Source: Actinomycetes bacterium | GTDB lineage: Bacteria > Actinomycetota > Thermoleophilia > UBA2241 | DNA: 64,000 nt | Assembly (NCBI GenBank): GCA_029547745.1 | Contig: JAKPOQ010000004.1 | Location: 2,737-66,736 of the forward strand | Reading direction: 5' to 3' | Shown: positions 1 to 28,171 of the stretch, in pieces | Layout of the letters: each line of letters begins with the position of its first letter | Position numbering within the stretch: the first letter of the stretch is position 1 | Notes under the pieces: model-generated | Told to the model about the DNA's origin: nothing | Databases searched by the model: none | Seen by the model: the letters and a program-made list of their open reading frames with translations, nothing else | Program-made: the position numbers and the translations under genes

Positions 1-473
1 ATCGCCACGATGATGTCGAAGTCGAAGCCGTCCACGCCCATGACGGATCGTCCGAGCAGGCCGCGTTCACGGCGCTTCTTGATCACCTCGTTCAGGTGCG
101 GGCGCAGGTAGGTGTACTCGGCCCGTAGGTAGACGATGCCCAGCGTCGCGCCGATGGCGCGGCCGCCGATCGTCATGCCCTCGAAGACGAGGTCGGCGTA
201 GCGCGAGAGGATGACCCTGTCCTTGAACGTCCCGGGTTCGCCCTCGTCGGCGTTGCAGATGATGTACTTGAGGTCGGCCTTCTCGGCGGCGCAGAAGTTC
301 CACTTCATGCCGGTCGGGAAGCCGGCGCCGCCGCGGCCTTTGAGGCCGCTCTCGCTCACGGTGTCGATGATGTCCGCCCGCGACATGGCCAACGCGGCCT
401 TGAGGCCGACGTCGGGCTCGATGGTCGCGTAAGTGAGGGCGTTGCCCTGGGAGTCGATGGTCCGTGCACTCAC
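1..473 (-). CDS. NuoF-like NADH/FMN flavoprotein subunit (HydB/HndC type), N-terminal ~157 aa only; the gene runs off the window start
   Basis: A minus-strand frame absent from the ORF track (no stop inside the window) translates from GTG 473..471 as VSARTIDSQGNALTYATIEPD...SESGLKGRGGAGFPTGMKWNFCAAEKADLKYIICNADEGEPGTFKDR, the NuoF FMN/NADH motif set. Track ORF 211..432(+) is its antisense mirror. The start overlaps the stop of the NuoE-like gene (GTGA). Confidence 0.7.
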   Translation of the reverse strand, partial: MSARTIDSQGNALTYATIEPDVGLKAALAMSRADIIDTVSESGLKGRGGAGFPTGMKWNFCAAEKADLKYIICNADEGEPGTFKDRVILSRYADLVFEGMTIGGRAIGATLGIVYLRAEYTYLRPHLNEVIKKRRERGLLGRSVMGVDGFDFDIIVA

Positions 474-967
474 GCGTCGGCCCTCCTCTGGTCGGCGCGG
501 CAGGCGGCGACGATCGCGCGCACATCGTCGGGCGTGACGCGCGTGTGGACGTCGTCGTCGACAAGTAGGGCGGGGCCTTGGTCGCACATGCCGATGCAGC
601 TTGCCCATTCGAGTGTCACCTGACCGTCGGCGGTCGTCTCGCCGAACTCCACGCCGAGCTCCCGGCGCAGTGCCTCGGCGACCGCGTCCTTGCCGGCGAA
701 GTCGCACGACAGGGTCCCGCAGAGGCGGATGACGTGGACGCCCTGGGGCCGGCTGCCCAGGAAGGCGTAGAACGAGGCCACGCTGTAGACCTCGACGGGG
801 TGGATGTCAAGGGCCTCGGCGACGACCTGCATCGTCTCGGCGTCGATCTCGTGGTAGCGGCGCTTGATGTCCTGGAGGATCGGGACGAGCGACGCGCGAC
901 CGGGGCCAAGCCTGTCGACCAGCCCTCCGATGTCGGCGCGCAGCGCCTCGGTCTGCGGTGCGGCCAT
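470..967 (-). CDS. NuoE-like thioredoxin-fold [2Fe-2S] subunit (HydC/HoxE type)
   Basis: The 165-aa product carries the NuoE 24-kDa subunit Cys pattern (LCGTLSC...ASCIGMCDQGPALLV). Its start forms an ATGA overlap with the REC gene stop at 967. It is a paralog of the gene at 10892..11443. Confidence 0.85.
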   Translation of the reverse strand: MAAPQTEALRADIGGLVDRLGPGRASLVPILQDIKRRYHEIDAETMQVVAEALDIHPVEVYSVASFYAFLGSRPQGVHVIRLCGTLSCDFAGKDAVAEALRRELGVEFGETTADGQVTLEWASCIGMCDQGPALLVDDDVHTRVTPDDVRAIVAACRADQRRADA

Positions 968-1350
968 CAGCCCTGCCCCTCCTTCTGCAGCAGCCCCCTG
1001 ACCTTGGCGATGAGGGTCGCGGGCTCCACCGGCTTCGACAGGAACTCGTCGACCGGGACCATCTCCTCGTCCTTGTCGATGTTGAGCCCCATCGCGGCGT
1101 TCACGCTGGTGAGCATGATGATGGGCAGGGTGTGACCCGTCTTGCGCAGCTCGCGCGCCATGTTGAGGCCGTCGTCGGGCTCTTCCATCATGACGTCGAG
1201 AATGAGCAGGTCGGGCTTGCTCTCTTCGATCCGGGCGAGGCCCTCGGCGCGGTTCGACGCGCCCTCGACCTCGTAGCCCTCACGTTCCAGCACGAGCTTT
1301 CCGGCCTCGATGATGTCGGGGTCGTCGTCGACGATCAGGATCTTCGCCAC
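967..1350 (-). CDS. Single-domain response regulator (CheY-like REC), first gene of a REC-NuoE-NuoF operon
   Basis: The 127-aa product starts MAKILIVDDDPDIIEAG, has the phospho-acceptor in LLILDVMMEE and the conserved Lys in SKP. It has no output domain and is translationally coupled to the NuoE-like gene. Confidence 0.85.
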   Translation of the reverse strand: MAKILIVDDDPDIIEAGKLVLEREGYEVEGASNRAEGLARIEESKPDLLILDVMMEEPDDGLNMARELRKTGHTLPIIMLTSVNAAMGLNIDKDEEMVPVDEFLSKPVEPATLIAKVRGLLQKEGQG

Positions 1351-1590
1351 CGCTCACTCCCTCTCTCGCTTGCGTTTCGCCACGCTCAGCACAAGCTGCG
1401 CCGGCGTTCCGTGCGACCGTGTGACCGCGCGACCGTGTCACGATGGTCCGTGGTAAGGCGTCCCGGCGGAGCCGGCTCGAATCGGCCTGACGACGTTCCG
1501 TCGTGGCCAGACTGTCCACACATCTCACGGTGCGGGACGGCCTCGATCGACCCCGATTCTCGCCTGTCACGCGCTCTTGTGCAAGCGGGA

Positions 1591-1700
1591 ACGAAGTCCT
1601 GCCGCCACTCTGCAAGCCTCCTCGAGATCCTGCCTTCGCACCGCAAGCCCCCGCCAGATCCTGCCGCCACACTGAAGGCCTCCGGGATCCATGGCGTTGC
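1591..1700. repeat. Three to four tandem degenerate ~31-bp direct repeats (consensus about GATCCTGCCGCCACACTGCAAGCCTCC) in the promoter region of the REC-NuoEF operon
   Basis: Read directly: gaagtcctgccgccactctgcaagcctcc, gagatcctgccttcgcaccgcaagccccc, agatcctgccgccacactgaaggcctcc, then a more degenerate fourth copy. They lie in the 447-bp intergenic region between 1350 and 1797. The only ORFs here are R-rich artefacts. Confidence 0.55.
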
Positions 1701-1796
1701 CGCACAAGTCCCTTGCGCTCCGGAGGCAGGGGACTGAATGACGGGGGCCGGAGGAGCGCTTGATCAGGGACTGGCGCAATCCCTCCACCTTGCCCT

Positions 1797-3041
1797 TCAG
1801 TCCCGAGCGCGCGCCGCCGGTCCGGCGGCGCGCGCTCTGACGCTTGCCTGGGTGTCGTCCTCGCCGCCGGCTCCGGGTGCGTCCATCAGCGTGACGGTGA
1901 ACGTGCTGCCGACGCCAGGTTCGCTCGTCACCGTCGCTTCGCCGTCGTACATGGTCGCGATCTTGCGCACCGTCGACAGACCGAGGCCGCTGCCGAGCAC
2001 CTTCACGGTGTGCTCGTTCTTGATGCGCGTGAACTCGCGGAAGAGCTTCGCCGCCTCTTCGGGCTTGAGGCCGATGCCGGTGTCGGCGACGGCGATCTCG
2101 ACGCCGCCGTCGAGGCGTCGCAGCACGACGTCGACGCGGCCGCCGTCGCGGTTGTACTTGACCGCGTTCGAGATGAGATTGTTGAGGACGATCTCGACCT
2201 CACCGGCGTCGGCCATGAGCTCGACGTCGTCGGCGGCGCGCAGCTCGACCGTGACGTCGCGGCGCGCGGCTTCGGTGGCGAAGAGGTCGATCGAGGCGCG
2301 GGCCAGTGCGGGCAGGTCCAGCCTGCGGACGGACCGCTCCCGCTGGCCCGACTCGATCCGCGTCAGGTCGAGGAGGTCGGCGATGAGCTTCTTCATGCCG
2401 TCGACGCGGGCGATGCTGCGCTGGACGATCTCGAGGTCTTGACCGCTCTCGGTGGTGGCGAGGATGTTCAAGTAGCCCTCCACCGCGTTGAGCGGCGCCT
2501 TCAGCTCGTGGGCGAGGACGCTGATGAAGTTGAAGCGTACCTGGCGCTTCTCTTCGGCCAGCTTGCGCGCCTGGCGGCTGAGGATGAGCTGGCTCGTCGC
2601 CTTGCGCACCGCGTAGCGGAGCTCGTCGGGCGTGAACGGTTTGGCAAGGAAGTCGTAGGCTCCGAGCTTGGTCGCCTTGACCGCCGTCTCGAAGGTCGCG
2701 TAGGCGGTCACCATGATGGTGAGGACGTCACGCCCCATGGTGCTGAGAGCGTCGAGGACGTCCATGCCGCCGACGCCGGGCAGCTTCAGGTCCAGGAGGA
2801 GCAGGTCGACCGGCCCCCCCTCGCTGAGGTAGACGAGGAAGTCCTCGCCGCTCGTGAAGTAACGATACTCGTAGGTCACGTCGACGAGGACGTCCGGGAC
2901 GTGGACGTGGTACTTCTCGATGATGCGCCGCACGCCTGCGCAGAGCGCTTCCTCGTCGTCGACCATCACGACCTGGAGGACGACCTCCTGCGGGTCCATG
3001 AGGCTTTGCTGGGGCGCGGGCTCGCCCTGTTGGGCGCTCAT
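1797..3041 (-). CDS. Hybrid signalling protein: N-terminal REC domain fused to histidine kinase (HisKA + HATPase_c)
   Basis: The real start is the M of MSAQQGEP. It forms an ATGA overlap with the stop of the upstream hydrogenase-kinase gene (3038..3040). The first ~204 codons of track ORF 1797..3653 are R-rich overlap artefact. REC: VVMVDDEE...LLLLDLKLPG...AKPF. HisKA H-box: VLAHELKAPLNAV. ATPase N/G boxes: NLISNAVKYN, DTGIGL, GSGLGLS. Confidence 0.8.
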   Translation of the reverse strand: MSAQQGEPAPQQSLMDPQEVVLQVVMVDDEEALCAGVRRIIEKYHVHVPDVLVDVTYEYRYFTSGEDFLVYLSEGGPVDLLLLDLKLPGVGGMDVLDALSTMGRDVLTIMVTAYATFETAVKATKLGAYDFLAKPFTPDELRYAVRKATSQLILSRQARKLAEEKRQVRFNFISVLAHELKAPLNAVEGYLNILATTESGQDLEIVQRSIARVDGMKKLIADLLDLTRIESGQRERSVRRLDLPALARASIDLFATEAARRDVTVELRAADDVELMADAGEVEIVLNNLISNAVKYNRDGGRVDVVLRRLDGGVEIAVADTGIGLKPEEAAKLFREFTRIKNEHTVKVLGSGLGLSTVRKIATMYDGEATVTSEPGVGSTFTVTLMDAPGAGGEDDTQASVRARAAGPAARARD

Positions 3042-5092
3042 GACGACGTCATCTCCCGCAGGCTGAACGCGGCGTCGGTCTCCGTCTCGGAGCGGGGCAG
3101 CGAGATCGTGAAGGTCGTGAAGGTCGGGCCCTTGTCCGGGTCGGCGTTGGATTCGACGGCGATCTGGCCGCGATGCATCTTGACGATCCCGTGCGACACG
3201 GCCAGACCGAGGCCGGTGCCCCTGCCCACCTGCTTCGTCGTGAAGAAGGGACTGAACAGCTTGTCGAGGTGGTCGGGAGCGATGCCCGTGCCCTGGTCGG
3301 AGATGGTGATCTGCACCGTCTCGGCGGTACCGTCGAGGGTGATGGTTATCCGTCCGCCGTCGGGCATGGCGTGCTGGGCGTTGGCGAGCATGTTGGTGAT
3401 GACCTGGACGATCTGGTCGCCGTCGATCTCGGCGACGGGGTCGGCCATCTGGTCGTTGACGACGATCTCGACGTCCTCCTCGCGGGGGAACGTGCGCAAC
3501 ACATCTTTGACCAGCGCCCTGAGGTCGGTCGGCTGGCGGACGACGCGGCTCTGGCGGGCGAAGTTCAGGAGCCCCGAGATGATCTTCTTGCAACGATTGG
3601 CCTGATTGACGATCAGCTTCGCGTCGGCCGCCACCAGGGGGTCGTTGTCGCACTCCTCGAGCAGGAGGTTAGCGTGCAGGAGGAGGATGCCGAGCGGGTT
3701 GTTGACCTCGTGGGCGATACCGGCGGCGAGCTGTCCCATGCTGGCCAGGCTCTCGGACTTGACGAGAGCCTCCCTCGTGCTCTCGAGCGAATGGTTCGCC
3801 TCCTCGAGCTCGTCCACGGTGCGGCGCAGGCGTTCGACGGCGTAGGGGAGGCACATCTCGATCTCGGCGAGGCCCTGCCAGACGGCGATGGCGTGCTCGC
3901 GGCAGGTGTCGTAGCCGCAGGCCCCGCAGTCGAGGAGGTCTTTGGGCGACGACTTGCCCATGCGCTCGAGGATCGCTTGCAGCTCCTCCGCGGGCGGTAT
4001 GTGGTCGAGGCGCTGGTCGAAGACGGTGAAGGTGCGCGACAGGTCGAGGTCGGCGAACTCCGCCATTGCGGCCTCCCACGCGGCTTGGTCAAAGACGCGC
4101 TGCCGCTCGCGGGCGGCGCGACTGACTTCCGCACGCCGCGTGAAGACCGGCTCCTCGTGGGTGAATCCGGCGCCCATCACGCAACCGTGACAACACAGGA
4201 TGTCGAGCAGGCGCGCCTCGGTCGCGCCGCTCTTGAAGTCCTCTATTGCGGCGGCGAAGTCGTGTCGCCCGTCGGCGCTGACGATGTCGCCGGTGAGGAG
4301 GTCCTCGCTCAGCCCGGCCGCGCGCAGCAGACCGCGGGTGAGGGGGAAGAGGCCGCCGAGTGCGCCGTGCGGCGGGTCGAAATCGTCGTCCGCCGGTCGC
4401 GAGGCGAGGACGATCCCCTTGCGGGCGAACATCGCGCGCAGCTCGACGAAGGTGAGCGCGGCGTCGACGTCGCCCTCGAACTGCTCGTACGACGCCTCGC
4501 CCTTCTTCGCGATGCAGGGCCCGATGAAGACGATCCTGGCCTCGGGACCGAGCCGCCGGTGTAGGGCGCGGGCGAGGGCGATCATCGGCGACACGATCGG
4601 AGCGAGGTTGTCGACAAGGTCGGGCTGGTACTTGCGCACGTACGAGACGACGGCCGGGCAAGGCGTCGCCATGTAGCGGCCGTCGCGGTCCTCGGCGAGC
4701 AGCTCGGCGTAAGCGCGGGCGACGAGGTCGGCGCCGAACGCGACCTCGTGGACGGAGTCGAAGCCGAGGTCGCGCAGGGCCGCCACGAGGGTCGCCGTGT
4801 CGCAGTCGGTGAACTCGGCGGGGTGACTCGGGGCGACGATCGCAGCCACGTGGGTCGAGGAAGCGAGCAGGGCATCGGTGTCGGCGATGCCGCTGAGGAC
4901 TTCCTTGGCGTTCTGGCTACAGACGGTGACGCAGTTGCCGCACCCGATGCACCGCGTCTCGATGACGCTCGCCTGACCGTCACTGATGGCGATCGCCTTG
5001 ACTGGGCATTCGCGTACGCACGTGTAGCACATGCGGCACTTCTCGCGGATGGTAGTGACGAGCTGCGTGCTGGCGACCCTGTCTTCGTTCAT
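3038..5092 (-). CDS. Sensory [FeFe]-hydrogenase-like protein (HydS-type H-cluster domain plus 2x[4Fe-4S]) fused to a C-terminal histidine kinase
   Basis: The 684-aa product has N-terminal ferredoxin motifs (CRMCYTCVRECP, CIGCGNCVTVC). H-cluster motifs are ATPCPAVVSY (L1-like), IGPCIAKKGE (L2, MPCxxKxxE-like) and DILCCHGCVMGAG (L3-like). Then come HisKA (AHEVNNPLG) and HATPase_c (NMLANAQHAM, DQGTGI, GTGLGL). No PAS domain is recognisable. Confidence 0.85.
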   Translation of the reverse strand: MNEDRVASTQLVTTIREKCRMCYTCVRECPVKAIAISDGQASVIETRCIGCGNCVTVCSQNAKEVLSGIADTDALLASSTHVAAIVAPSHPAEFTDCDTATLVAALRDLGFDSVHEVAFGADLVARAYAELLAEDRDGRYMATPCPAVVSYVRKYQPDLVDNLAPIVSPMIALARALHRRLGPEARIVFIGPCIAKKGEASYEQFEGDVDAALTFVELRAMFARKGIVLASRPADDDFDPPHGALGGLFPLTRGLLRAAGLSEDLLTGDIVSADGRHDFAAAIEDFKSGATEARLLDILCCHGCVMGAGFTHEEPVFTRRAEVSRAARERQRVFDQAAWEAAMAEFADLDLSRTFTVFDQRLDHIPPAEELQAILERMGKSSPKDLLDCGACGYDTCREHAIAVWQGLAEIEMCLPYAVERLRRTVDELEEANHSLESTREALVKSESLASMGQLAAGIAHEVNNPLGILLLHANLLLEECDNDPLVAADAKLIVNQANRCKKIISGLLNFARQSRVVRQPTDLRALVKDVLRTFPREEDVEIVVNDQMADPVAEIDGDQIVQVITNMLANAQHAMPDGGRITITLDGTAETVQITISDQGTGIAPDHLDKLFSPFFTTKQVGRGTGLGLAVSHGIVKMHRGQIAVESNADPDKGPTFTTFTISLPRSETETDAAFSLREMTSS

Positions 5093-5107
5093 CTGTGAAG
5101 TGTCACC

Positions 5108-5518
5108 TCAGTCCGGCCGGTCGCCGAGCAGCTCGGCGACCTTGGCGAGCAGGGCGCCGCCGTCGATGGGCTTGTCGAAGTACGCGTCGACCCGCATCTT
5201 CTCCATGTCCTCGGCGGAGCGCGGACGGAAGTCGAGACCGAGGGCGCTGGACACGGACGTCGACATGATGATCGGCACCGCGGCGGTCTGCGGGTCGCCC
5301 TTCAGGGAGGCGGAGAAGGAGAATCCGGCGTCGAGACTGTCCATCATCAGGTCCGTGATGATGAGGTCGGGGACCTCGTCGGCGATGCGCGCCTGCGCTT
5401 CGGCAGGGTCGGCGGCCGTGGCGACCCTGTACCCCGCCTTCTCGAGGATGATGCGGTTGATCTCGAGGAAGTCGAAGTCGTCGTCGACGATGAGGATCAG
5501 TCTCTTCGTGTCACTCAC
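5108..5518 (-). CDS. Single-domain response regulator (REC only)
   Basis: The 136-aa product starts MSDTKRLILIVDDDFDFLE, with phospho-acceptor LIITDLMMD and conserved Lys DKP. There is no output domain. Confidence 0.85.
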   Translation of the reverse strand: MSDTKRLILIVDDDFDFLEINRIILEKAGYRVATAADPAEAQARIADEVPDLIITDLMMDSLDAGFSFSASLKGDPQTAAVPIIMSTSVSSALGLDFRPRSAEDMEKMRVDAYFDKPIDGGALLAKVAELLGDRPD

Positions 5519-5609
5519 GTTCGTCCACCGTCATCCGCTTGCCCGCCTTCGCCAGTATAGCCGGCGCCCGTCGCGCGCTGCGCCCGTACCGGCCGCTCGC
5601 GTTCCGGGG

Positions 5610-5643
5610 GCTGCGCGGGGCGCTCGCGAGCGCCCCGCGCAGC
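5610..5643. terminator. Perfect 34-bp GC-rich palindrome (GCTGCGCGGGGCGCTCGCGAGCGCCCCGCGCAGC) immediately downstream of hydA
   Basis: The sequence equals its own reverse complement. It sits in the gap between the hydA stop (5658) and the REC start (5518). There is no T-tract, as is usual in high-GC genomes. It is a candidate intrinsic terminator and/or operator. Confidence 0.5.
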
Positions 5644-5657
5644 CGTTCCGTCGCGTC

Positions 5658-7430
5658 TCAGACGCGTTCGTGTTCGAAGTAGTGGGTGTGCAGGAGGTCG
5701 TGGGAGAGCTCCCCACAGGGCGCTCCGAGGTACTCCTCATAGAGTGCGCGGACAGCGGGGTTCTCGTGCGACTTGCGCAGCTCGCGGCCCTCGTCCTCCT
5801 TGAAGATCGCCTGCATGCGCGCCTTGCGGACCTCGTCGGTCGTGAAGCGGGGCTGGCCGCCTCCGCCGATGCAACCGCCGGGGCAGGTCATGACCTCGAC
5901 GAAGTGGTACTCGGCTTCGCCGTCCCGTATCTGGTCGATGACCTTCTGGGCGTTGCCGAGGCCGTGGGCGACGGCGACCTTGAGGTCCACGCCCTCCAGG
6001 AACGACCACTCGCCCCTGGCGCCCTGGACCTTGATGCTCGCGGTCTTGACGCCCTCGAGGCCCTCGATCGGTTCGACGTGCAGGTCGGGGAACGGGAAGG
6101 GCGTCTCGGTGACGATCTCCCACACCGTGCGTAGCGCCGCCTCCATGACACCGCCGGTGTTGGCGAAGATGTCGGCCGCGCCGGTCGAGATGCCGAGCGG
6201 AGCGTCCATCTTCTCGTCGGGCAGCGCGCGGAAGTCGATGCCGGCCTGGGTGATCATCGCGCCCAGCTCACGTGTCGTGAGGACGATGTCGACGTCGCGG
6301 ACCCCGCTGGCCGTCATCTCGGGGCGCGCCGCCTCGAACTTCTTCGCCGTGCAGGGCATGACCGAAACGACGACCATGTCCTCGGGCCTCACGCCGATCT
6401 TGTCGGCGTAGTAGGTCTTGCTGATCGCCCCGAACATCTGCTGCGGGCTCTTGCAGGTGCTGAGGTTGGCGAGCATGTCGGGGTTGAAGTGCTCCATGTA
6501 GTTGATCCAGCCCGGGGAGCAGCTCGAGAACTGGGGCAGGACCACGGGCTCGCCGTCGACCAGCGCCCGCTTGAGGCGCTCGAGGAGCTCGGTGCCCTCT
6601 TCCATGATGGTAAGGTCCGCGGCGAAGTCCGTGTCGAAGACGGCATCGAACCCCATGCGCCGCAAGGCGGCGACCATCTTGCCCGTGACGAGTGTCCCCG
6701 GCGGGTAGCCGAAGCACTCGCCGAGCGCGGCGCGGATAGCCGGCGCCGTCTGCACGACGACGGTCTTCGTCGGGTCTTCAAGGGCCGCCCAGACCTCGTC
6801 GATCTGGTTGCGCTCGGTGATGGCGCCGACCGGGCACACGGCGGCGCACTGGCCGCACTGCACGCAGACGACGTCGTCGAGAGGAGAGCCGAAGGCCGGC
6901 CCGATGAGGGTGTCGAAGCCGCGGTCCTGGGCGAACAGCGCGCCGACGCCCTGGACCTCGTTGCATACCGTCACGCAACGCCGGCACGAGATGCACTTGC
7001 CGGTGTCGCGGACGAGCGCCGGTGTCGAGTCGTCGACGAAGCGCCGGGTCTTCTCGCCGGTGTAGGTGAGCTCACCGATGCCGAGCTCCTCCGCCAGCGT
7101 GCGGAGCTCGCAGTCGGCGCTGCGCGGGCAGACCTTGCAGTCGCCGTCGTGCTCGCTGAGGAGCAGCTCGACGACCGTCCGCCGTCCGGCGCGCACCTTG
7201 CCGGTGTTCGTCTTCACCACCATGCCCTCGGTTGCCGGCTGGGTGCACGACGCCACGAGGGTGCGCGCCCCCTCGACCTCGACCAGACAGACGCGGCAGG
7301 CGCCGATCGCCTGGACGTCCTCGAGGTAGCAGAGGGTGGGGATGTTCACGCCCGCCTGGCGGGCGGCTTGGAGAACCGAGGTCCCTTCGGGGACCTCGAC
7401 CTTGATGTCGTCGATGGTCAGTGTCGGCAT
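5658..7430 (-). CDS. hydA: [FeFe]-hydrogenase catalytic subunit HydA (M3-type: 2Fe-2S + His-ligated 4Fe-4S + 2x4Fe-4S + H-cluster domain)
   Basis: Start at MPTLTIDDIKVEV (residue 36 of track ORF 5658..7535) with GGAGCGG SD. The upstream 35 codons overlap hydB. H-cluster motifs are SSCSPGW, MPCTAKKFE and EVMTCPGGCIGGGGQP. A NuoG-like N-terminus (CYLEDVQAIGACRVCLVEV) is present. Confidence 0.9.
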   Translation of the reverse strand: MPTLTIDDIKVEVPEGTSVLQAARQAGVNIPTLCYLEDVQAIGACRVCLVEVEGARTLVASCTQPATEGMVVKTNTGKVRAGRRTVVELLLSEHDGDCKVCPRSADCELRTLAEELGIGELTYTGEKTRRFVDDSTPALVRDTGKCISCRRCVTVCNEVQGVGALFAQDRGFDTLIGPAFGSPLDDVVCVQCGQCAAVCPVGAITERNQIDEVWAALEDPTKTVVVQTAPAIRAALGECFGYPPGTLVTGKMVAALRRMGFDAVFDTDFAADLTIMEEGTELLERLKRALVDGEPVVLPQFSSCSPGWINYMEHFNPDMLANLSTCKSPQQMFGAISKTYYADKIGVRPEDMVVVSVMPCTAKKFEAARPEMTASGVRDVDIVLTTRELGAMITQAGIDFRALPDEKMDAPLGISTGAADIFANTGGVMEAALRTVWEIVTETPFPFPDLHVEPIEGLEGVKTASIKVQGARGEWSFLEGVDLKVAVAHGLGNAQKVIDQIRDGEAEYHFVEVMTCPGGCIGGGGQPRFTTDEVRKARMQAIFKEDEGRELRKSHENPAVRALYEEYLGAPCGELSHDLLHTHYFEHERV

Positions 7431-7440
7431 TGTCCGCTCC

Positions 7441-10400
7441 TCACCCTTCCGCGTGGTACTTGCCGTAGTCGCAGCGCAGACACCGTTTCGCCTCGGCCAG
7501 GGCCACCTCGGCGGCCCAGCCCAGTTCGACCTCATCGAAGCTCTTCACACGCTGCGCCACCGGGAGCTCCTCGATCGTGTGGCGCTCCACCGGCACCGGG
7601 TCGGCGTCCGGGTCGAAGGCCGTCGGCGGCTCGATGTCGCGCCGCCAGAACGCATGGTTCGCGCCCGTGAGGAGCTCGTCGATGCCGGCGGCGGCGCGCT
7701 CGCCGGCGCCGATCGCCTCGACCACCGAAGAGGGGCCGGTCATGGCGTCGCCGCCGGTGAAGACCCAGTCGACCGAGGTCCGCCCGGTCTTGCGGTCGGC
7801 GGCGAGGTAGCCCCGCCGGTCGAGCTCGATCGGCGTGCCGTCGAGGACGGCCGCGGCGTCGAGCTTCTGCCCGATGGCGGCGATCACCGTGTCGGCCTCG
7901 ACCACGAACGCAGGGTCGTGGCCGGCCACGGGCTGGCGCCGCCCGCTCCTGTCGTAGTCGCCAAGGGCCATGCGCGTGCAGCGCACGCCCGTCACGTTGC
8001 CCTCGGCGTCACGGAGGATCTCCTCCGGGGCCACGAGGGTCATGATCTCGATGCCCTCGAGGTCGGCGGCGTCGATCTCCTCGCTCCACGCCGGCATCTC
8101 GGCCCGCGTGCGACGGTAGAGGATCTTGACCGACTCGGCGCCGAGGCGGATGGCGGTCCGGGCGGCGTCGATGGCCGCGTTCCCGCCGCCGATGACCGCC
8201 ACGTTCGTGCCGACCCTGGCCGTGCCGTGGAGGTTGTAGTCCTTGAGGAAGGAGAGGCCGTCGTACACGCCGGGACCGTCCTCGCCGGGGACGCCGATGC
8301 CCATGCCTCGCGGGGCGCCGACGGCGACGAACACGGCTTCGTAGCCCTCGTCGCGGAGGCTCTGCAGCGTGAAGTCGCGGCCGAGCGCCTTCCCGTACTC
8401 GAAGTGCACGCCCATGCCCTCGATCATCGCGACCTCGCGCGCGAGCTCCTTGCGTGGCAGGCGGTAGGCCGGGATGGCCTGGACCAGCATGCCGCCGGCC
8501 TTGGGCTCCGCCTCGAAGACGACCGGCTTGTATCCGAGCCGGGCGAGGAAGTAGGCGGCGGAAAGGCCGGCGGGTCCGGAGCCGACGATCGCCACCTTGC
8601 GGCGGGCGTTCTCGGCGTTCTCGCGGATCTCCGGGAGCTGCGGCGTCGTCTCCTGCTCGACCATGAAGCGCTTGACCTGACGGATCGCCAGCGGGCCGTC
8701 GAGGGTCGCGCGCATGCACTTGCGCTCGCACGGATGGAAGCACACGCGAGCGCAGATGCTCGCCAGCGGGTTCCGCTCGCGATGGAACCTGAGCGCCTCG
8801 TCGTACCTGCCCTCGGCCACAAGGCTCACGAACCCGGGGATGTTGACGTTCGCCGGGCACGCGTTGGAACAGCGGGCTTTGAACAGGCTTGAGCAGACGC
8901 CGGCCTCGCAGTACTTGTCCTTGATGTGGGCCTCGTACTCGTGGCGGAAGTGGCGGATGGTCGAGAGGACCGGGTTCGGCGCCGTCTGCCCAAGGCCGCA
9001 GAGGGCCGTCTGGCTGATGGTCTCGCCGAGCGCGATGAGGCGCTCGATGTCGCCTTCTTCACCCTCGCCGTTGCAGATGCGTTCCACGATCTCGAGCATC
9101 CGCTTGGTGCCCACGCGGCAGGGCGTGCATTTGCCGCAGCTCTCCTCTTGGGTGAACTCGAGGAAGAAGCGGGCGATGTCGACCATGCAGGTGTCCTCGT
9201 CCATGACGATGACGCCGCCGGAGCCCATGATGGCGCCGAGCTCCTGCAACGTGGCGTAGTCGACCGGCACGTTGAGGTGCTCACGGGGGATGCAGCCGCC
9301 GGAGGGCCCGCCGAGCTGCGCCGCTTTGTAGGTCTTGCCGTTGGGGATCCCGCCGCCGACGTCGTAGATGAGCTCGCCGAGCTGCATGCCGATCGGCACT
9401 TCGACGAGGCCGGTGTGCTGGACGTTGCCCCCGAGGGCGAAGACCTTGGTCCCCTTGCTCTTCTCGGTGCCGGTGCTCGCGTACCACTCGGCGCCCTTGA
9501 GGATGATCGGGGCGATGTTGGCGAAGGTCTCGACGTTGTTGAGCACACTGGGCTTGCCCCAGAGGCCCGAGACGGCCGGGAAGGGAGGCCGCGGGCGAGG
9601 CTCACCGCGATGGCCCTCGATGGAGGTCATCAGCGCGGTCTCCTCGCCGCAGACGAAGGCGCCCGAGCCCATGCGGATCTCGAGGTCGAAGTCGAAGCCG
9701 CTCCCGAGGATGTCCTTGCCGAGCAGCCCGTACTCGCGCGCCTGGTTCAGGGCGTGCTCGAGACGCTCGACGGCAAGCGGATACTCGGCGCGCACATACA
9801 CGTACCCCTGGTGCGCGCCGATGGCGTAGGCGCCGATGATCATGCCCTCGATGAGGGAGTGCGGGTCGCCTTCGAGGACGGAGCGGTCCATGAACGCGCC
9901 GGGGTCGCCTTCGTCGGCGTTGCACAACATGTACTTGACGTCGCTGCCCTGCTGCTGGGCGAACCGCCACTTCATGCCAGTGGGAAAGCCGGCGCCGCCG
10001 CGACCGCGCAGGCCGCTGGCCAGCACCTCCTCGACGACCTGTTCGGGGGTCATCTCGGTGACGACCTTGGCGAGGGCTTGGTACCCGTCGCGGGCGATGT
10101 ACTCGCCGATGTCGAGGGGGTCGATGATCCCGCAGTTCCGCAGCACGATCTTGACCTGGCGGTTGAAGAACGGGATGTCCGTCATCTCCGCCTGGGTCTT
10201 GTCGGTACCGGGAGCGTGGCTCACGAGGCGCTCGACGACGCGGCCCTTGAGCAGGTGCTCCTCGACGATCTCGGGGACGTCCTCGACGTGGACGTTCTGG
10301 TAGAAGACCCCGTCCGGGTAGACCAGGGCCACCGGGCCACGCACGCAGGGGCCGAGACAGCCGGTCTCCACGACGTCGACCTCGCCGGCCAGGTCTCTCT

Positions 10401-10506
10401 TCTCGAGCTCGGCGCGTACGGCCTGGCTCACCTCGAGCGACCCGGAGGCGATGCAGCCGCCGCCCGTGCAGACCAGGAAATGGGTTCTCGATGCAGTCAT
10501 AGTCAT
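7441..10506 (-). CDS. hydB: HydB-like NuoF flavoprotein with N-terminal thioredoxin-like [2Fe-2S] domain, fused to a C-terminal GltD/SudA-like NAD(P)H-dependent FAD oxidoreductase domain
   Basis: 1021 aa. NuoF motifs: GLRGRGGAGFPTGMKW, CNADEGDPGAF, CGKCTPCRVG. GltD-like module: 2x[4Fe-4S] (CEAGVCSS...CSNACP; CARVCFHPCERKC), FAD dinucleotide fold VAIVGSGPAGLSAAYFL and a second GG motif VAVIGGGNAAIDAA. Confidence 0.85.
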   Translation of the reverse strand: MTMTASRTHFLVCTGGGCIASGSLEVSQAVRAELEKRDLAGEVDVVETGCLGPCVRGPVALVYPDGVFYQNVHVEDVPEIVEEHLLKGRVVERLVSHAPGTDKTQAEMTDIPFFNRQVKIVLRNCGIIDPLDIGEYIARDGYQALAKVVTEMTPEQVVEEVLASGLRGRGGAGFPTGMKWRFAQQQGSDVKYMLCNADEGDPGAFMDRSVLEGDPHSLIEGMIIGAYAIGAHQGYVYVRAEYPLAVERLEHALNQAREYGLLGKDILGSGFDFDLEIRMGSGAFVCGEETALMTSIEGHRGEPRPRPPFPAVSGLWGKPSVLNNVETFANIAPIILKGAEWYASTGTEKSKGTKVFALGGNVQHTGLVEVPIGMQLGELIYDVGGGIPNGKTYKAAQLGGPSGGCIPREHLNVPVDYATLQELGAIMGSGGVIVMDEDTCMVDIARFFLEFTQEESCGKCTPCRVGTKRMLEIVERICNGEGEEGDIERLIALGETISQTALCGLGQTAPNPVLSTIRHFRHEYEAHIKDKYCEAGVCSSLFKARCSNACPANVNIPGFVSLVAEGRYDEALRFHRERNPLASICARVCFHPCERKCMRATLDGPLAIRQVKRFMVEQETTPQLPEIRENAENARRKVAIVGSGPAGLSAAYFLARLGYKPVVFEAEPKAGGMLVQAIPAYRLPRKELAREVAMIEGMGVHFEYGKALGRDFTLQSLRDEGYEAVFVAVGAPRGMGIGVPGEDGPGVYDGLSFLKDYNLHGTARVGTNVAVIGGGNAAIDAARTAIRLGAESVKILYRRTRAEMPAWSEEIDAADLEGIEIMTLVAPEEILRDAEGNVTGVRCTRMALGDYDRSGRRQPVAGHDPAFVVEADTVIAAIGQKLDAAAVLDGTPIELDRRGYLAADRKTGRTSVDWVFTGGDAMTGPSSVVEAIGAGERAAAGIDELLTGANHAFWRRDIEPPTAFDPDADPVPVERHTIEELPVAQRVKSFDEVELGWAAEVALAEAKRCLRCDYGKYHAEG

Positions 10507-10517
10507 GTCACCCGCTC

Positions 10518-10889
10518 TCAGGCTTCGATCAGGTAGGCGGTCACGGGCTCGCCTCCCAAGAGGTGCTTCTGAACGATCTCGCGGACCTTGGCCTCATCCA
10601 GGAGGCCGTAGCGGTACATCGTGCCGTCGGCATGGGTCACGGTCGCCATGGGCTCCTCTTCACAGAGCCCGGCGCAGCCGGTCTGGTGCAAGCTCACGTC
10701 GCTGACGCCCGCTTCTCCCATCTCGGCCATGAACGAGGCGAGCACGCCACGGGCGCCGGCGGCGATGCCGCACGTGCCCATGTGGACGGTCACCTGGGTC
10801 TCCTTGCGCCCTTGACGCACGTTGAGGCCGGCCTTGGCCGCCTCGGCGAGCGCCTTGAGCTGGTCGGGGCTGGTGATCTTCGCGGCCAT
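10518..10889 (-). CDS. Thioredoxin-like [2Fe-2S] ferredoxin (HndB-like small subunit)
   Basis: The 123-aa product starts at MAAKITSPDQ, in the last third of track ORF 10518..11408 (the earlier part is R-rich overlap with hydC). Cys pattern: HMGTCGIAAG...GCAGLCEEEP. Confidence 0.75.
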   Translation of the reverse strand: MAAKITSPDQLKALAEAAKAGLNVRQGRKETQVTVHMGTCGIAAGARGVLASFMAEMGEAGVSDVSLHQTGCAGLCEEEPMATVTHADGTMYRYGLLDEAKVREIVQKHLLGGEPVTAYLIEA

Positions 10890-10891
10890 CG

Positions 10892-11443
10892 TCAGGCGCT
10901 CCTTTCGGCCAACGCCGGCTCGCCGGCGTACTGGGCGAGGATCTCGTTGACGCGTTTCGGCTTGACGCGATGGTGGACGTCCTCGTCGACCATGATCACC
11001 GGGGCCAACCCGCAGGCGCCGAAGCAGCGCCCGATGGCGAGCGAGAACCGGCGATCGTCGGTGGTCCCCCCGATGTCGATGTCGAGTTCTTTCTTGAGGG
11101 CGTCCAACACCTGCACGCCGCCTCTGACGTAGCACGCCGTGCCGAGGCAGACGCGGACGAGGTGCTCGCCGCGCGGCACCGTGGTGAAGAACGAGTAGAA
11201 GCCGACGACGCCGGCGACCTCGCTGTACGGCTTGCCCAGCCGGCGCGCGATGTGCTTGAGGGCGACCTCCGGCAGGTAGCCGAAGATGCCCTGGGCGAGT
11301 TGCAGGACGGGGATGAGGGCGCCGGGCTTGCCACGATAGTCCTCGATCACCGCGTCGAGGCGTTCGAGGAGCTCTTCCTCGGTCGGCTCCTCGGCGCAGC
11401 ACTCGCACCGCTTGACGTCTTCGTTCATTCGGCTCTCCTTCAC
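10892..11443 (-). CDS. hydC: HydC, NuoE-like [2Fe-2S] subunit
   Basis: 183 aa; NuoE motifs VCLGTACYVRG and GRCFGACGLAPVIMV. Confidence 0.85.
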   Translation of the reverse strand: MKESRMNEDVKRCECCAEEPTEEELLERLDAVIEDYRGKPGALIPVLQLAQGIFGYLPEVALKHIARRLGKPYSEVAGVVGFYSFFTTVPRGEHLVRVCLGTACYVRGGVQVLDALKKELDIDIGGTTDDRRFSLAIGRCFGACGLAPVIMVDEDVHHRVKPKRVNEILAQYAGEPALAERSA

Positions 11444-11480
11444 TCCGTTCGCTTGTTCTCTGCCGCGCAGGTTCTCTGCG

Positions 11481-11975
11481 TCAGTCCAGTGATCGTTGAA
11501 AGGCGCGGAGGGTGTCGAGCCGGGCGGGCAACGTCTCCCGTCCCAGCACGACGAGTTCTCCGTCCTCGCGCAGTTCGACGCTGAAGGCCACCTCCGGGTT
11601 GGTCACCGTCATCGTCAGGATGCTCAGGGCGACGTCGCCGGCCGGTGGCCGGTCGACGTTGGTGAGGCTCATGCGCGCCTCGACGGCTGTCCCACCGAGG
11701 CGCTCCGAGGAGCTGACGCTGAGTCCGCCGCCGGCGGCCTCGGCCTCCTGCCTGAGCAGGCTGAGGCCGAGGCCGGTCTTCTTGCCCGGCTTGGTGGTGT
11801 AGAAGGGGTCCAGGGCGGCGTCGGGCGGAACCGGCAAGCCGGGGCCGTCGTCCTCGACCGTGAGGGCGAGCAGATCGGCCCGCCGGTCGACGGCGAGCGT
11901 CACCGCGACACGCGTCGCCCCGGCGCGCACCGAGTTCTCGAGAAGCTCGAGGAGGTAGAGCGAGAGGTCATGCAT
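11481..11975 (-). CDS. Small GHKL/HATPase_c-like ATPase (anti-sigma-factor/Ser-kinase-like) conserved in [FeFe]-hydrogenase operons
   Basis: 164 aa. N-box-like ENSVRAG, G-box DDGPGLP and GLGLSL. The start overlaps the PHP gene stop by 8 nt. Confidence 0.65.
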   Translation of the reverse strand: MHDLSLYLLELLENSVRAGATRVAVTLAVDRRADLLALTVEDDGPGLPVPPDAALDPFYTTKPGKKTGLGLSLLRQEAEAAGGGLSVSSSERLGGTAVEARMSLTNVDRPPAGDVALSILTMTVTNPEVAFSVELREDGELVVLGRETLPARLDTLRAFQRSLD

Positions 11976-12708: not shown

Positions 12709-12760
12709 GCATCAGGTCCTTCGTGGCGCGTCGGGTCCTTCATCGAGCCTCCTCGCGGTG

Positions 12761-13111
12761 TCAGGCGCCGCATCCTCTCACGCCGCGGGTGTAGAGCTGG
12801 CCGACGACCTCGAAGGTGTCGTCGTCGGCCCCGTACAGCGCGAGGCCCTCCTCGGTCGCCTTGGCGACGACGTCCTCGTCCGGTCGTCGCCCGCCGCTGA
12901 ACACCACGGCGGCGATGTCGGCGTGGCCGGCCACGGCGACGACGTTGAGGTGGACCTGAAGGGTCACCAGCAGTCCGCCGGCGGGGGCGTGCGCGAGGAC
13001 ATCGCTCAGGAGGTCGGACGCGTACCCCCTGGTGACCTCGGCGGTGGCGTCGCCGGCGCCGGCGTTCAGCTCGGTCAAGCCGAGCTCGGCGACGATCTCC
13101 TGGAGCTTCAT
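12761..13111 (-). CDS. DRTGG-domain protein
   Basis: The real start is MKLQEIVAELG (residue 38 of track ORF 12761..13222), an ATGA overlap with the upstream gene stop. About 116 aa. It resembles the C-terminal domain of the rex fusion at 14697..15746. Confidence 0.6.
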   Translation of the reverse strand: MKLQEIVAELGLTELNAGAGDATAEVTRGYASDLLSDVLAHAPAGGLLVTLQVHLNVVAVAGHADIAAVVFSGGRRPDEDVVAKATEEGLALYGADDDTFEVVGQLYTRGVRGCGA

Positions 13112-14694: not shown

Positions 14695-14696
14695 CG

Positions 14697-15746: not shown

Positions 15747-15792
15747 TGACTTGACTCCTGCAATGGGTGTGTTAGCCGTTACAGAACGAACG

Positions 15793-15810
15793 CTGTGAAA
15801 ACTGTAACGA
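15793..15810. promoter_or_regulatory. Candidate degenerate Rex operator (CTGTGAAAACTGTAACGA vs consensus TTGTGAANNNNTTCACAA), nested in an inverted repeat GTTACAG-N17-CTGTAAC (15778..15808)
   Basis: Located 47-64 nt upstream of the rex GTG start, with 14 of 18 positions matching the consensus outside the spacer. Coordinates were read from the printed sequence. Confidence 0.3.
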
Positions 15811-28170: not shown

Positions 28171-28171
28171 G

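What the first reader, a model, noticed from the sequence alone, without database searches (positions are those of the whole stretch)
967..5518. Sensory [FeFe]-hydrogenase fused directly to a histidine kinase, inside a REC-only signalling island between two hydrogenase operons
Gene 3038..5092 pairs a complete H-cluster-binding domain with an intact HisKA/HATPase_c kinase. The domain has two ferredoxin clusters plus the H-cluster Cys in CPAVV, GPCIAKK and LCCHGC. The residue that would be the proton-relay Cys is Pro, which suggests sensing rather than catalysis. It is translationally coupled (ATGA) to a REC-HisKA-HATPase hybrid (1797..3041) and flanked by two single-domain REC proteins (5108..5518 and 967..1350). 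The second REC is itself ATGA-coupled to a NuoE/NuoF pair. I see no DNA-binding, HPt, PAS or phosphatase domain anywhere in the island. The output therefore looks protein-protein, possibly direct control of the NuoEF-containing enzymes or of the Rex/GHKL cassette upstream. Histidine-kinase-linked sensory [FeFe] hydrogenases are a recognised but uncharacterised class. This particular architecture (kinase fusion + REC-kinase hybrid + two CheY-like REC, welded to hydrogenase structural operons) looks like an H2-responsive phosphorelay that is wired post-transcriptionally.
Basis: partly seen in the sequence, partly recalled or inferred. Interest (0 to 1): 0.85.

Follow-up and report, generated by a model that had tools for sequence, protein, structure and literature searches.

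The report
Hydrogen-sensor hydrogenase fused to histidine kinase
A Thermoleophilia bacterium encodes a non-catalytic-type [FeFe] hydrogenase fused to a histidine kinase, with a receiver-kinase and small receiver proteins; the cassette is real and found in hundreds of genomes but already catalogued and untested, so it is mainly a handle for testing whether such proteins sense H2.

Summary
These are joined by a helix to an intact HisKA/HATPase_c transmitter. The proton-relay Cys is Pro here and T/S/P/A/N in 81 orthologues, never Cys.

The gene overlaps (ATGA) a REC-HisKA-HATPase gene and is flanked by two receiver-only proteins. It lies between two HydABC-type hydrogenase operons.

This is not a one-off. 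At least 569 species-level genomes from many phyla encode a relative, and the 80 best are full-length orthologues. The order hydC-hydB-hydA-[REC]-hydS::HK-[REC]-REC::HK is conserved in about 85-96% of loci with enough flank.

Best reading: an H2-sensing kinase of AtoS/ZraS type feeds the NtrC-type receiver of a PhoR/WalK-type kinase. That kinase then phosphorylates OmpR-like receivers that lack an output domain. The order of steps and the final target are inferred, not shown.

HK-fused group C hydrogenases are already listed in HydDB and described as 'BfuT' (2024). I therefore rate this a new member of a known but uncharacterised kind. The 'post-transcriptional wiring' claim remains unproven.

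The parts
3038..5092 (-). hydS::HK, 684 aa: sensory-type [FeFe] hydrogenase fused to a HisKA/HATPase_c transmitter
   Evidence: Pfam; motif alignment; 100% identical to NCBI protein from a Thermoleophilia MAG; conservation in 81 orthologues
4907..5047 (-). two ferredoxin-type [4Fe-4S] motifs (aa 16-62; C19,C22,C25,C29,C48,C51,C54,C58)
   Evidence: Pfam Fer4 families; all eight Cys 100% conserved in 81 orthologues
4169..4852 (-). H-cluster domain (aa 81-308): ligand Cys C145, C193, C301, C304; K196; relay position P144; M353->G191; M497->L299
   Evidence: Fe_hyd_lg_C E=8e-45; alignment to 8a6t; Foldseek to DdH/CpI/CbA5H, TM(target) 0.5-0.66; conservation
3845..3934 (-). accessory C-terminal [4Fe-4S] motif Cx2Cx4Cx16C (C389,C392,C397,C414), the hallmark of group C/D HydS proteins
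   Evidence: PF04060 FeS E=7e-9; motif as described in PMC8163306; Cys 99-100% conserved
3713..3850 (-). helical linker from the last cluster Cys (C414) to the phospho-acceptor His (H461); length quantised by one heptad
   Evidence: C414->H461 = 47 aa in 76/81 orthologues and 40 aa in 5/81; AF2 helices 415-434 and 440-480, low confidence at 425-455
3092..3739 (-). HisKA (aa 452-514, H461, HEVNN) and HATPase_c (aa 557-667; N, G1, G2 boxes) of AtoS/ZraS type
   Evidence: Pfam; NCBIfam AtoS 1e-55, ZraS 4e-48; PDB ZraS 9jfj 2e-35; catalytic residues 100% conserved
1797..3041 (-). REC::HK, 414 aa: NtrC/LuxO-like receiver (D84) followed by PhoR/WalK/HK853-like transmitter (H178); ATGA overlap with hydS::HK
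   Evidence: Pfam; NCBIfam; PDB; overlap; present downstream in 68/71 loci
5108..5518 (-). REC2, 136 aa receiver-only protein (D12-D14, D56, T87, K116), 15 nt upstream of hydS::HK
   Evidence: Pfam; family conservation of phospho-site residues in 94 homologues; OmpR-family-like receiver
967..1350 (-). REC1, 127 aa receiver-only paralogue of REC2; first gene of the second hydrogenase operon, 1-nt overlap (TGATG) with NuoE2
   Evidence: Pfam; REC1/REC2 reciprocal 82 bits; REC-NuoE-NuoF-HydA order also in Gaiellales, Myxococcota and Eisenbacteria loci
1556..1584 (-). promoter-like element TTGCAC-17 nt-GAGAAT for the REC1-hydC2B2A2 operon
   Evidence: core conserved in five other Thermoleophilia loci; not found by the sigma-70 consensus scan, so tentative
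5609..5644 (-). perfect 16-bp GC hairpin between hydA and REC2 (possible attenuator or mRNA-end stabiliser)
   Evidence: fold (region -78 kcal/mol, z = -2.8); sequence
5658..7430 (-). HydA1, catalytic [FeFe] hydrogenase subunit (NCBIfam group A6), L1 = SSCSPGW
   Evidence: Pfam; NCBIfam NF040763 883 bits; motif
7441..10506 (-). HydB fused to a GltD-like NAD(P)H/FAD module (1021 aa)
   Evidence: Pfam; NCBIfam
10518..11443 (-). HndB-like thioredoxin-like ferredoxin (10518..10889) and HydC/NuoE (10892..11443)
   Evidence: Pfam
11481..15746 (-). upstream regulatory block of the same operon: small GHKL ATPase, PHP protein, DRTGG protein, HfsA-like (anti-sigma-type kinase + Fer4 + degenerate H-domain + FeS), Rex-DRTGG fusion
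   Evidence: Pfam; gene calls and Pfam
3..967 (-). NuoE2 (470..967) and the N-terminal part of the short NuoF2 (3..473) of the second hydrogenase
   Evidence: Pfam; complete genes in L001

Best explanation
Proposed mechanism, with each step marked as shown or inferred.

1. Sensor (domains shown, function inferred). The 684-aa protein is a cytoplasmic H2 sensor. Its hydrogenase module binds an H-cluster but lacks the proton-relay Cys. It therefore reacts with H2 slowly, as reported for sensory HydS proteins.

2. Coupling (geometry shown, signal inferred). The state of the module is passed through the C-terminal [4Fe-4S] domain and a rigid, heptad-constrained helix into the DHp bundle. This changes the kinase/phosphatase balance of an AtoS/ZraS-type transmitter at H461.

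3. First transfer (inferred from family-level pairing and obligate co-occurrence). The phosphoryl group goes to D84 of the NtrC-type receiver at the N-terminus of the downstream REC::HK protein.

4. Second transfer (inferred). That receiver gates its own PhoR/WalK-type transmitter at H178. The transmitter then phosphorylates the OmpR-like, output-less receivers: REC2 and, in Actinomycetota, its paralogue REC1.

5. Output (unknown). The phospho-receivers act by protein contact on a target that is not yet known. Candidates are the adjacent HydABC enzymes (REC1 is translationally coupled to HydC2), Rex, or an unlinked regulator. The effect would be to tune H2 production or consumption to ambient H2.
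For: Domains and motifs.

Conservation in 81 orthologues from many phyla:
- 100% (one 99%): eight Fer4 Cys, four H-cluster Cys, K196, four accessory-cluster Cys, H461, and the N, G1 and G2 boxes.
- The relay position is never Cys.
- M353->Gly in all, as reported for the spectroscopically characterised TmHydS (PMC8163306).

Maturase genes are linked. HydG lies just beyond the window. ORFs with HydE-, HydG- and HydF-type N-termini follow REC::HK in most of the 12 loci from other lineages that I read (sequence inspection, not profile-tested).

Linker: C414->H461 is 47 aa in 76 of 81 orthologues and 40 aa in 5 of 81, a difference of exactly one heptad. AF2 predicts a near-continuous helix.

Synteny: REC::HK downstream in 68/71 loci, single REC adjacent in 60/71, HydA immediately upstream in 59/70. 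Loci without a single REC still keep REC::HK.

Family-level pairing:
- hydS::HK transmitter is closest to AtoS/ZraS.
- The receiver of REC::HK is closest to LuxO/AtoC/NtrC.
- The REC::HK transmitter is closest to PhoR/PnpS/WalK/HK853.
- The single receivers are closest to OmpR-family receivers.

Phospho-site residues of all receivers are conserved.

The H-domain behaves as a modular input. Among its 150 nearest 50%-identity clusters, about 48 carry an HK, about 16 carry a sigma54 activator with HTH, and most of the rest have a ~150-aa C-terminal extension consistent with PAS; Pfam finds PAS families in up to 38 of the 76 members of the lower-ranked half.
Against: - Nothing here shows cofactor insertion, H2 reactivity or phosphotransfer.
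- For the group D homologue TamHydS, the C-terminal cluster is not reduced by H2 (PMC13104023). A redox relay through that cluster is therefore doubtful, and the coupling may be purely conformational.
- The order of the cascade rests on family-level HK/RR correlations, not on specificity-residue analysis. The single REC could equally be a direct substrate or a phosphate sink of hydS::HK.
- The AF2 model is mediocre (mean pLDDT 70; below 50 at 425-455).
- No output target was identified.
Confidence: 0.55

Rival explanations
1. Classical transcriptional control. The cascade ends on a DNA-binding response regulator encoded elsewhere in the genome, for example an OmpR-type partner of the PhoR/WalK-like REC::HK. 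The receiver-only proteins are phosphate sinks or modulators, not the output.
For: - The REC::HK transmitter is of the type that normally serves OmpR-family transcription factors.
- The [NiFe] paradigm HoxBC-HoxJ-HoxA acts on transcription (HydDB table).
- The closest H-domain relatives include direct fusions to sigma54 activators with HTH_8, which shows that this sensor family does drive transcription in other lineages.
- A separate promoter-like element precedes the second operon, and three 25-nt direct repeats spaced 31 nt apart lie just upstream of it.
Against: - No DNA-binding response regulator was found in the 64-kb window. phmmer with the window's REC domains found no consistently placed additional receiver in the ±10-kb flanks of 80 loci. 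The ORFs read downstream of REC::HK in 12 loci are maturase-like or unrelated.
- The receiver-only gene is conserved next to the sensor in 60/71 loci.
- The direct repeats are not conserved in related Thermoleophilia.
Confidence: 0.28
2. The hydrogenase-like module senses something other than H2. It could report the redox state of the ferredoxin/NAD(H) pool through its three accessory clusters, or O2/CO through the H-cluster.
For: - Three accessory [4Fe-4S] sites are invariant.
- The operon is headed by the NADH/NAD+ sensor Rex, so redox is a relevant signal.
- Group C/D enzymes show altered CO and O2 reactivity (PMC8163306).
Against: - All H-cluster ligands and K196 are invariant.
- The cassette travels with HydA and, in many of the loci examined, with H-cluster maturase-type genes. 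That would be unnecessary for a plain Fe-S redox sensor.
Confidence: 0.12
3. The protein is a structural or catalytic fourth subunit ('BfuT') of the HydABC complex, and its kinase domain is vestigial.
For: - It is named as a subunit T of BfuABC in PMC11406978.
- It always lies next to hydA.
Against: - The kinase catalytic residues (H461, N, G1 and G2 boxes) and those of its partners are 95-100% conserved across phyla.
- The relay Cys is absent, which lowers turnover in characterised homologues.
Confidence: 0.04

Closest known systems
Group C putative sensory [FeFe] hydrogenases (M2f type, e.g. Thermotoga maritima HydS; HydDB C1-C3)
   Same: - N-terminal 2x[4Fe-4S], H-domain with four Cys ligands, loss of the proton-relay Cys.
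- M353->Gly as in TmHydS.
- C-terminal Cx2Cx4Cx16C cluster.
- Location beside a group A HydABC operon.
   Different: - The PAS domain that defines the characterised members is absent. A complete HisKA/HATPase_c transmitter is attached directly to the cluster domain through a helix.
- M497 is Leu, as in TamHydS, not Ser.
HK-fused group C3 'BfuT' subunits of sub-type V BfuABC clusters (Hydrogenedentota, Caldithrix abyssi WP_006928132.1; PMC11406978)
   Same: - Same architecture and same position downstream of hydA.
- Hydrogenedentota loci L025, L044, L057, L071 and L081 are 54-55% identical over the full length. This is almost certainly the same orthologous family.
   Different: - In the passages I searched, that paper does not mention the REC and REC::HK partners, the linker constraint, or an actinobacterial variant. 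I did not read it in full.
- The actinobacterial variant has REC upstream, GltD-fused HydB, a second REC-led hydrogenase operon and a Rex/HfsA-like block.
[NiFe] regulatory hydrogenase system HoxBC-HoxJ-HoxA (HupUV-HupT-HupR)
   Same: Same logic. A slow, sensor-type hydrogenase controls a histidine kinase that governs hydrogenase genes.
   Different: - The metal site is unrelated.
- There the sensor and kinase are separate proteins joined through a PAS-like domain.
- The output there is an NtrC-type DNA-binding regulator. Here the NtrC-type receiver is fused to a second kinase, and no DNA-binding partner is linked.
Group D HydS (Thermoanaerobacter mathranii TamHydS, M2e)
   Same: - No PAS domain.
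- C-terminal cluster present.
- M497->Leu.
- Neighbouring GHKL-type ATPase genes.
   Different: - Group D has Ser/Thr at M353; here it is Gly in 81/81.
- TamHydS has no fused transmitter.
Multi-kinase networks ending on single-domain receivers (CbbSR-CbbRR1/RR2 of Rhodopseudomonas palustris, RedCDEF of Myxococcus, DivK circuits); comparison from my own knowledge
   Same: Receivers lack an output domain and act by protein contact. A receiver domain gates a second kinase.
   Different: - The input is a metalloenzyme domain.
- Membership was not tested.
- No target is known.

Membership tests
[FeFe] hydrogenase group C (putative sensory, M2f/HydS) | [quoted passage not shown] | tested here: met
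   Fer4 families at aa 16-62; eight Cys conserved 100% in 81 orthologues
[FeFe] hydrogenase group C (putative sensory, M2f/HydS) | H-domain with the four Cys that hold the H-cluster (L1, L2, L3) | tested here: met
   C145, C193, C301 and C304 aligned to 8a6t; 81/81 conserved; fold match to solved hydrogenases
[FeFe] hydrogenase group C (putative sensory, M2f/HydS) | Proton-relay Cys (CpI C299) not conserved | tested here: met
   Pro144 here; T35/S29/P9/A4/N4 in orthologues
[FeFe] hydrogenase group C (putative sensory, M2f/HydS) | C-terminal four-Cys motif Cx2Cx4Cx16C | tested here: met
   CGACGYDTCREHAIAVWQGLAEIEMC, PF04060; motif definition in PMC8163306
[FeFe] hydrogenase group C (putative sensory, M2f/HydS) | PAS domain after the C-terminal cluster | tested here: not met
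   No PAS hit. Only 35 residues lie between the FeS domain (ends aa 416) and HisKA (starts aa 452)
[FeFe] hydrogenase group C (putative sensory, M2f/HydS) | HydDB classifier assignment to C1, C2 or C3 | not tested
   HydDB is not available here. C3 is inferred from 54-55% identity to Hydrogenedentota loci, whose HK-bearing proteins that paper places in C3
[FeFe] hydrogenase group C (putative sensory, M2f/HydS) | Binds a [2Fe] subcluster and reacts with H2 | not testable with these tools
   Needs expression, FTIR/EPR
[FeFe] hydrogenase group D (M2e, TamHydS) | Hydroxyl residue (Ser/Thr) at CpI M353 | tested here: not met
   Gly191 in 81/81; criterion from PMC8163306
HisKA-class sensor histidine kinase | H-box His, N, G1 and G2 boxes intact | tested here: met
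   H461, N567/N571, D599/G601/G603, G625/G627/G629 conserved 100%; HisKA and HATPase_c above Pfam cut-offs
HisKA-class sensor histidine kinase | Cognate receiver encoded alongside | tested here: met
   REC::HK in 68/71 loci and single REC in 60/71 loci
His-Asp-His-Asp phosphorelay | HPt domain or Spo0B-like phosphotransferase between two receivers | tested here: not met
   No HPt family hit. The PF10090 hit overlaps HATPase_c. The second His is the H-box of a full kinase.
[NiFe] regulatory hydrogenase two-component system (HoxBC/HoxJ/HoxA) | [NiFe] large and small sensor subunits and an NtrC-type DNA-binding regulator | tested here: not met
   No NiFe hydrogenase or sigma54/HTH protein in the cassette or among the window ORFs scanned up to ~52 kb; no further receiver anywhere in the 64 kb. 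The resemblance is functional only.

The most novel reading that the evidence does not exclude
The output-less receivers are phospho-dependent regulatory subunits of the hydrogenases themselves. REC1 is translationally coupled to HydC2 at the head of a REC-HydC-HydB(short)-HydA operon that recurs in Actinomycetota, Myxococcota and Eisenbacteria. Phosphorylated REC1 (and REC2) would bind the NuoE/NuoF-type module and switch enzyme activity or assembly in response to H2. This would be a post-translational feedback loop on an [FeFe] hydrogenase driven by a sensory [FeFe] hydrogenase.
Probability: 0.15. Interest if true: 0.8.

Novelty: new member of a known kind. Interest (0 to 1): 0.5.

Why it matters
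Whether group C/D [FeFe] hydrogenases really sense H2 is an open question, and their signalling partners are unknown. A 2026 study of TamHydS still calls for identifying interaction partners (PMC13104023).

The PAS-type proteins studied so far have no measurable output. In this family the output is built in. Autophosphorylation of H461 and transfer to defined receivers can be measured with and without H2, which makes the hypothesis directly testable.

The cassette is widespread. At least 569 species-level genomes, including Planctomycetota, Hydrogenedentota, Marinimicrobia, Nitrospirota, Myxococcota, Acidobacteriota and Actinomycetota, carry it next to HydABC-type hydrogenases. If it works as proposed, it would be a common mechanism by which anaerobes set H2 production or consumption.

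It would also be a compact, single-polypeptide H2-to-phosphorylation transducer for synthetic biology.

Tried and rejected
- Rex operator search (TTGTGAAN4TTCACAA, up to 3 mismatches): no match in the window.
- Sigma-70 promoter and intrinsic terminator scan of 900..5800: nothing above the shuffled expectation.
- Rfam scan of 1..16500 at E<=1: only chance-level hits.
- Three 25-nt direct repeats at 1597..1683 looked like regulator sites, but they are absent from related Thermoleophilia loci, so they were not used as evidence.
- The PF10090 HPTransfase hit was rejected as an HPt domain because it overlaps HATPase_c.
- A hidden PAS domain was rejected because the FeS-to-HisKA spacer is 35 residues and predicted helical.
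- Another receiver or DNA-binding response regulator in the window: none found, by Pfam on ORFs up to ~52 kb and by phmmer with the REC queries over the full 64 kb. ORFs between 52 and 64 kb were not Pfam-scanned.
- Greening et al. 2016 could not be read; the paper is not held.
- No paper in the library reports biochemistry of an HK-fused HydS.
- The review of multimeric [FeFe] hydrogenases does not mention these regulators.
- The AF2 model was only moderately confident. I used it for secondary structure and fold assignment only.

Full report
**What is there.** The window is 68% G+C. It is contig DAOLSS010000004.1 of a Thermoleophilia (Actinomycetota) MAG, GCA_035419265.1. All genes of interest are on the minus strand. 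Read in the direction of transcription they are:
- Rex-DRTGG fusion (14697..15746)
- an HfsA-like protein with an anti-sigma-type kinase domain, Fer4, a degenerate H-domain and an FeS motif (13108..14694)
- DRTGG, PHP and small GHKL proteins
- HydC/NuoE (10892..11443)
- an HndB-like ferredoxin
- HydB fused to a GltD module (7441..10506)
- HydA (5658..7430)
- REC2 (5108..5518)
- hydS::HK (3038..5092)
- REC::HK (1797..3041)
- a 446-bp gap
- REC1 (967..1350), NuoE2 (470..967) and NuoF2 (3..473)

Beyond the window the second operon continues with NuoF2, HydA2, a GAF-HK, HydG and a TM1266-like protein.

**Checking the observation.** That motif is described as a unifying feature of putative sensory group C and D hydrogenases (PMC8163306; PMC13104023).

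A residue-by-residue alignment to solved HydA1 8a6t shows the following:
- TSCCP -> ATPCP. The ligand Cys is kept and the relay Cys is replaced by Pro.
- MPCxxKKxE -> GPCIAKKGE.
- MxCxxGC -> LCCHGC.

The ATGA overlap with REC::HK is real. The REC1/NuoE2 junction is TGATG, a 1-nt overlap, not ATGA.

An AF2 model (mean pLDDT 70) matches solved [FeFe] hydrogenases over about 380-450 columns. It matches the ZraS cytoplasmic domain over the C-terminal third. No HydS-type structure is in the PDB.

**Is it a dedicated, conserved system?** Yes. A scan of one genome per species found at least 569 genomes encoding a relative; the 80 best loci were kept and all encode full-length orthologues (50-85% identity over residues ~11-670). 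They include Thermoleophilia/Gaiellales, Planctomycetota, Hydrogenedentota, Marinimicrobia, Sumerlaeota, Nitrospirota, Caldisericia, Lentisphaerota, Verrucomicrobiota, Myxococcota, Acidobacteriota and others. I annotated the 80 loci by phmmer with the window's proteins:
- REC::HK lies downstream in 68 of 71 loci with at least 2 kb of flank.
- A receiver-only protein is adjacent in 60 of 71.
- HydA is immediately upstream in 59 of 70.

Two cassette orders exist. The first is hydC-hydB-hydA-hydS::HK-REC-REC::HK. The second, used in this window, is hydC-hydB::gltD-hydA-REC-hydS::HK-REC::HK. REC is upstream in 20 of 21 loci with GltD-fused HydB and in 1 of 49 without. In most of the 12 loci from other lineages whose downstream ORFs I read, genes with HydE-, HydG-, aspartase-like and HydF-type N-termini follow REC::HK (judged by sequence inspection, not by profile search).

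**Conservation of functional residues.**
- In 81 orthologues the eight Fer4 Cys, the four H-cluster Cys, K196, the four accessory-cluster Cys (one at 99%), H461 and the N/G1/G2 boxes are invariant.
- Position 144 is T, S, P, A or N, never Cys.
- CpI M353 is Gly in all, as in TmHydS. M497 is Leu in 80 of 81, as in TamHydS.
- The receiver-only family keeps the DDD acidic pocket, D56, T87 and K116.
- REC::HK keeps D84, T112, K134, H178 and its ATP-lid boxes.

All three proteins are under selection as working phosphotransfer proteins.

**How the signal probably leaves the hydrogenase module.** The spacer from the last cluster Cys to the phospho-His is 47 residues in 76 orthologues. It is 40 in the other five, a difference of exactly one heptad. 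AF2 predicts helices 415-434 and 440-480. This is the signature of a rigid coiled-coil signalling helix, and there is no room for a PAS domain. For TamHydS the C-terminal cluster is not reduced by H2. I therefore favour conformational over redox coupling through this domain; that is an inference.

**Order of the cascade (inferred).**
- The hydS::HK transmitter is closest to AtoS and ZraS, kinases that serve NtrC-family receivers (NCBIfam 1e-55 and 4e-48; PDB ZraS 2e-35). It carries the HExxN motif associated with phosphatase activity in HisKA kinases (my own knowledge).
- The receiver of REC::HK is closest to LuxO, AtoC and NtrC (PDB NtrC1).
- The transmitter of REC::HK is closest to PhoR, PnpS, WalK and HK853. 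It has Ala or Ser where the phosphatase Thr/Asn would be.
- REC1 and REC2 are closest to OmpR-family receivers. In phmmer they never match the REC::HK receiver.
- Loci that lack the small receiver still keep REC::HK.

Together this suggests hydS::HK -> D84 of REC::HK -> H178 -> REC2 (and REC1). This is a two-tier kinase cascade, not a His-Asp-His-Asp phosphorelay, because no HPt domain exists.

**Output.** No HTH, sigma54, GGDEF or other output domain is linked, and no further receiver is detectable in the 64-kb window. phmmer with the window's REC domains found no consistently placed additional receiver in the flanks of the other loci, and the downstream ORFs read in 12 loci are maturase-like or unrelated.

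REC1 is the first gene of a REC-HydC-HydB(short)-HydA operon and overlaps hydC2. The same order occurs in Gaiellales, Myxococcota and Eisenbacteria loci.

A transcriptional route remains open, either through an unlinked regulator or through Rex. Rex heads this operon and also sits directly upstream of hydS::HK in a Brocadiia locus. Sister clades of the same H-domain are fused directly to sigma54 activators with an HTH.

**Relation to what is known.** HydDB lists group C1 'histidine kinase-linked', C2 'chemotactic' and C3 'phosphatase-linked', all putative. A 2024 study of Hydrogenedentota states that one type of group C3 protein ('BfuT', sub-type V clusters) carries a histidine kinase domain. 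It says the same of the HydDB reference WP_006928132.1, and that the cluster organisation matches Caldithrix abyssi. My Hydrogenedentota loci are 54-55% identical to the window protein over the full length, so this is the same family.

A rough NJ tree of the 123 nearest full-length H-domains puts 35 of 40 HK fusions in one clade with the window protein. The sigma54 fusions sit beside it, and the proteins with a ~150-aa (PAS-sized) C-terminal extension mostly form a separate clade.

I found no biochemical work on an HK-fused member. NCBIfam has no model that reaches its cut-off for this protein.

**Verdict.** The interpretation as an H2-responsive kinase system is reasonable and strengthened by wide, tight synteny. 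The claim that the architecture is special to this locus is wrong, and the claim of post-transcriptional wiring is unproven.

The fusion is already catalogued. As far as I could find, the following are new here:
- the system-level picture of a conserved hydS::HK / REC / REC::HK triad
- the two cassette orders
- the heptad-quantised linker
- the family-level ordering of the cascade

Its main value is practical, because it gives the field a sensory hydrogenase with a measurable output.

Noticed in passing
window 5658..7430 (HydA; L1 motif near aa 300) and L001:15834-17786 (HydA2); HydA genes of loci L007-L086: 77 of 80 HydA genes beside hydS::HK have the L1 motif (T/S)SCSPGW instead of TSCCPxW. 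In a gap-free alignment to 8a6t, the Cys that ligates the [4Fe-4S] part of the H-cluster (CpI C300) is Ser, while the relay Cys is kept. The proteins still score above the NCBIfam 'group A6 NADH-dependent' cut-off. A 2013 paper flagged the same motif in Melainabacteria as unusual. I did not establish whether Ser ligates the cluster or how common this is among HydA in general.
   Followed up: partly
proteins P0157, P0158, P0172-P0174, P0183-P0185, P0197, P0206, P0212, P0224, P0228, P0238, P0263, P0265: About 16 of the 150 nearest 50%-identity clusters of the H-domain are fused to Sigma54_activat + HTH_8. These would be one-component, NtrC-type H2-sensor/transcription-activator candidates. In a rough tree they sit next to the HK-fused clade.
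   Followed up: partly
window 13108..14694 (-), with 12761..13111, 11968..12708, 11481..11975: A second sensory-type protein sits at the head of the same operon. It has an anti-sigma-type kinase domain (HATPase_c_2), Fer4, a degenerate H-domain that still has Cys at all four ligand positions (SPVCPGV, VSCPGQR, LCDGGC) and the PF04060 motif. It is followed by DRTGG, PHP and small GHKL genes. It resembles what the Hydrogenedentota paper calls HATPase-bearing group C1.
   Followed up: partly
window 14697..15746 (-): The Rex redox repressor (Put_DNA-bind_N + CoA_binding) has a C-terminal extension that matches the DRTGG protein of the same operon. No canonical Rex operator was found in the window.
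   Followed up: partly
window 7441..10506 (-): HydB (NuoF-type, with an N-terminal thioredoxin-like 2Fe-2S domain) is fused to a GltD/NfnB-like Fer4_20 + Pyr_redox_2 module (1021 aa). This suggests a second NAD(P)H site. The fusion correlates with REC lying upstream of the sensor.
   Followed up: partly
window 3..473 and L001:14620-15819: NuoF2 of the second hydrogenase is only 399 aa. It has no N-terminal 2Fe-2S domain and no C-terminal Fer4 domains. This resembles the beta subunits of non-bifurcating NADH-dependent hydrogenases (PMC7311640).
   Followed up: no
window 1597..1683 and 1409..1440: Three 25-nt direct repeats spaced 31 nt apart lie immediately upstream of the promoter-like element of the REC1 operon. 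Three overlapping 16-nt repeat units (8-nt register, CCGTG(C/T)GACCG) lie in its leader. Neither is conserved in related Thermoleophilia loci.
   Followed up: partly
window 5609..5644 (-): A perfect 16-bp GC hairpin with a 4-nt loop and no U-tract lies between the hydA stop and the REC2 start. It could lower or stabilise expression of the regulatory genes relative to the structural genes.
   Followed up: no
loci L019, L020, L028, L029, L040, L062, L076, L085 (downstream of REC::HK): In these loci from other phyla the ORFs immediately after REC::HK have HydE-, HydG-, aspartate-ammonia-lyase-like and/or HydF-type N-termini; not all four are present in every locus. Structural, sensory and maturation genes thus appear to form one island. 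Assignment is by sequence inspection, not profile search.
   Followed up: partly
window 28160..30367 and 30430..32721 (+): Two tandem paralogous genes encode amino-acid permease fused to a C-terminal universal stress protein domain. They sit next to an H+-pyrophosphatase (25564..27774) and a TrkA_N gene. They are unrelated to the finding.
   Followed up: no
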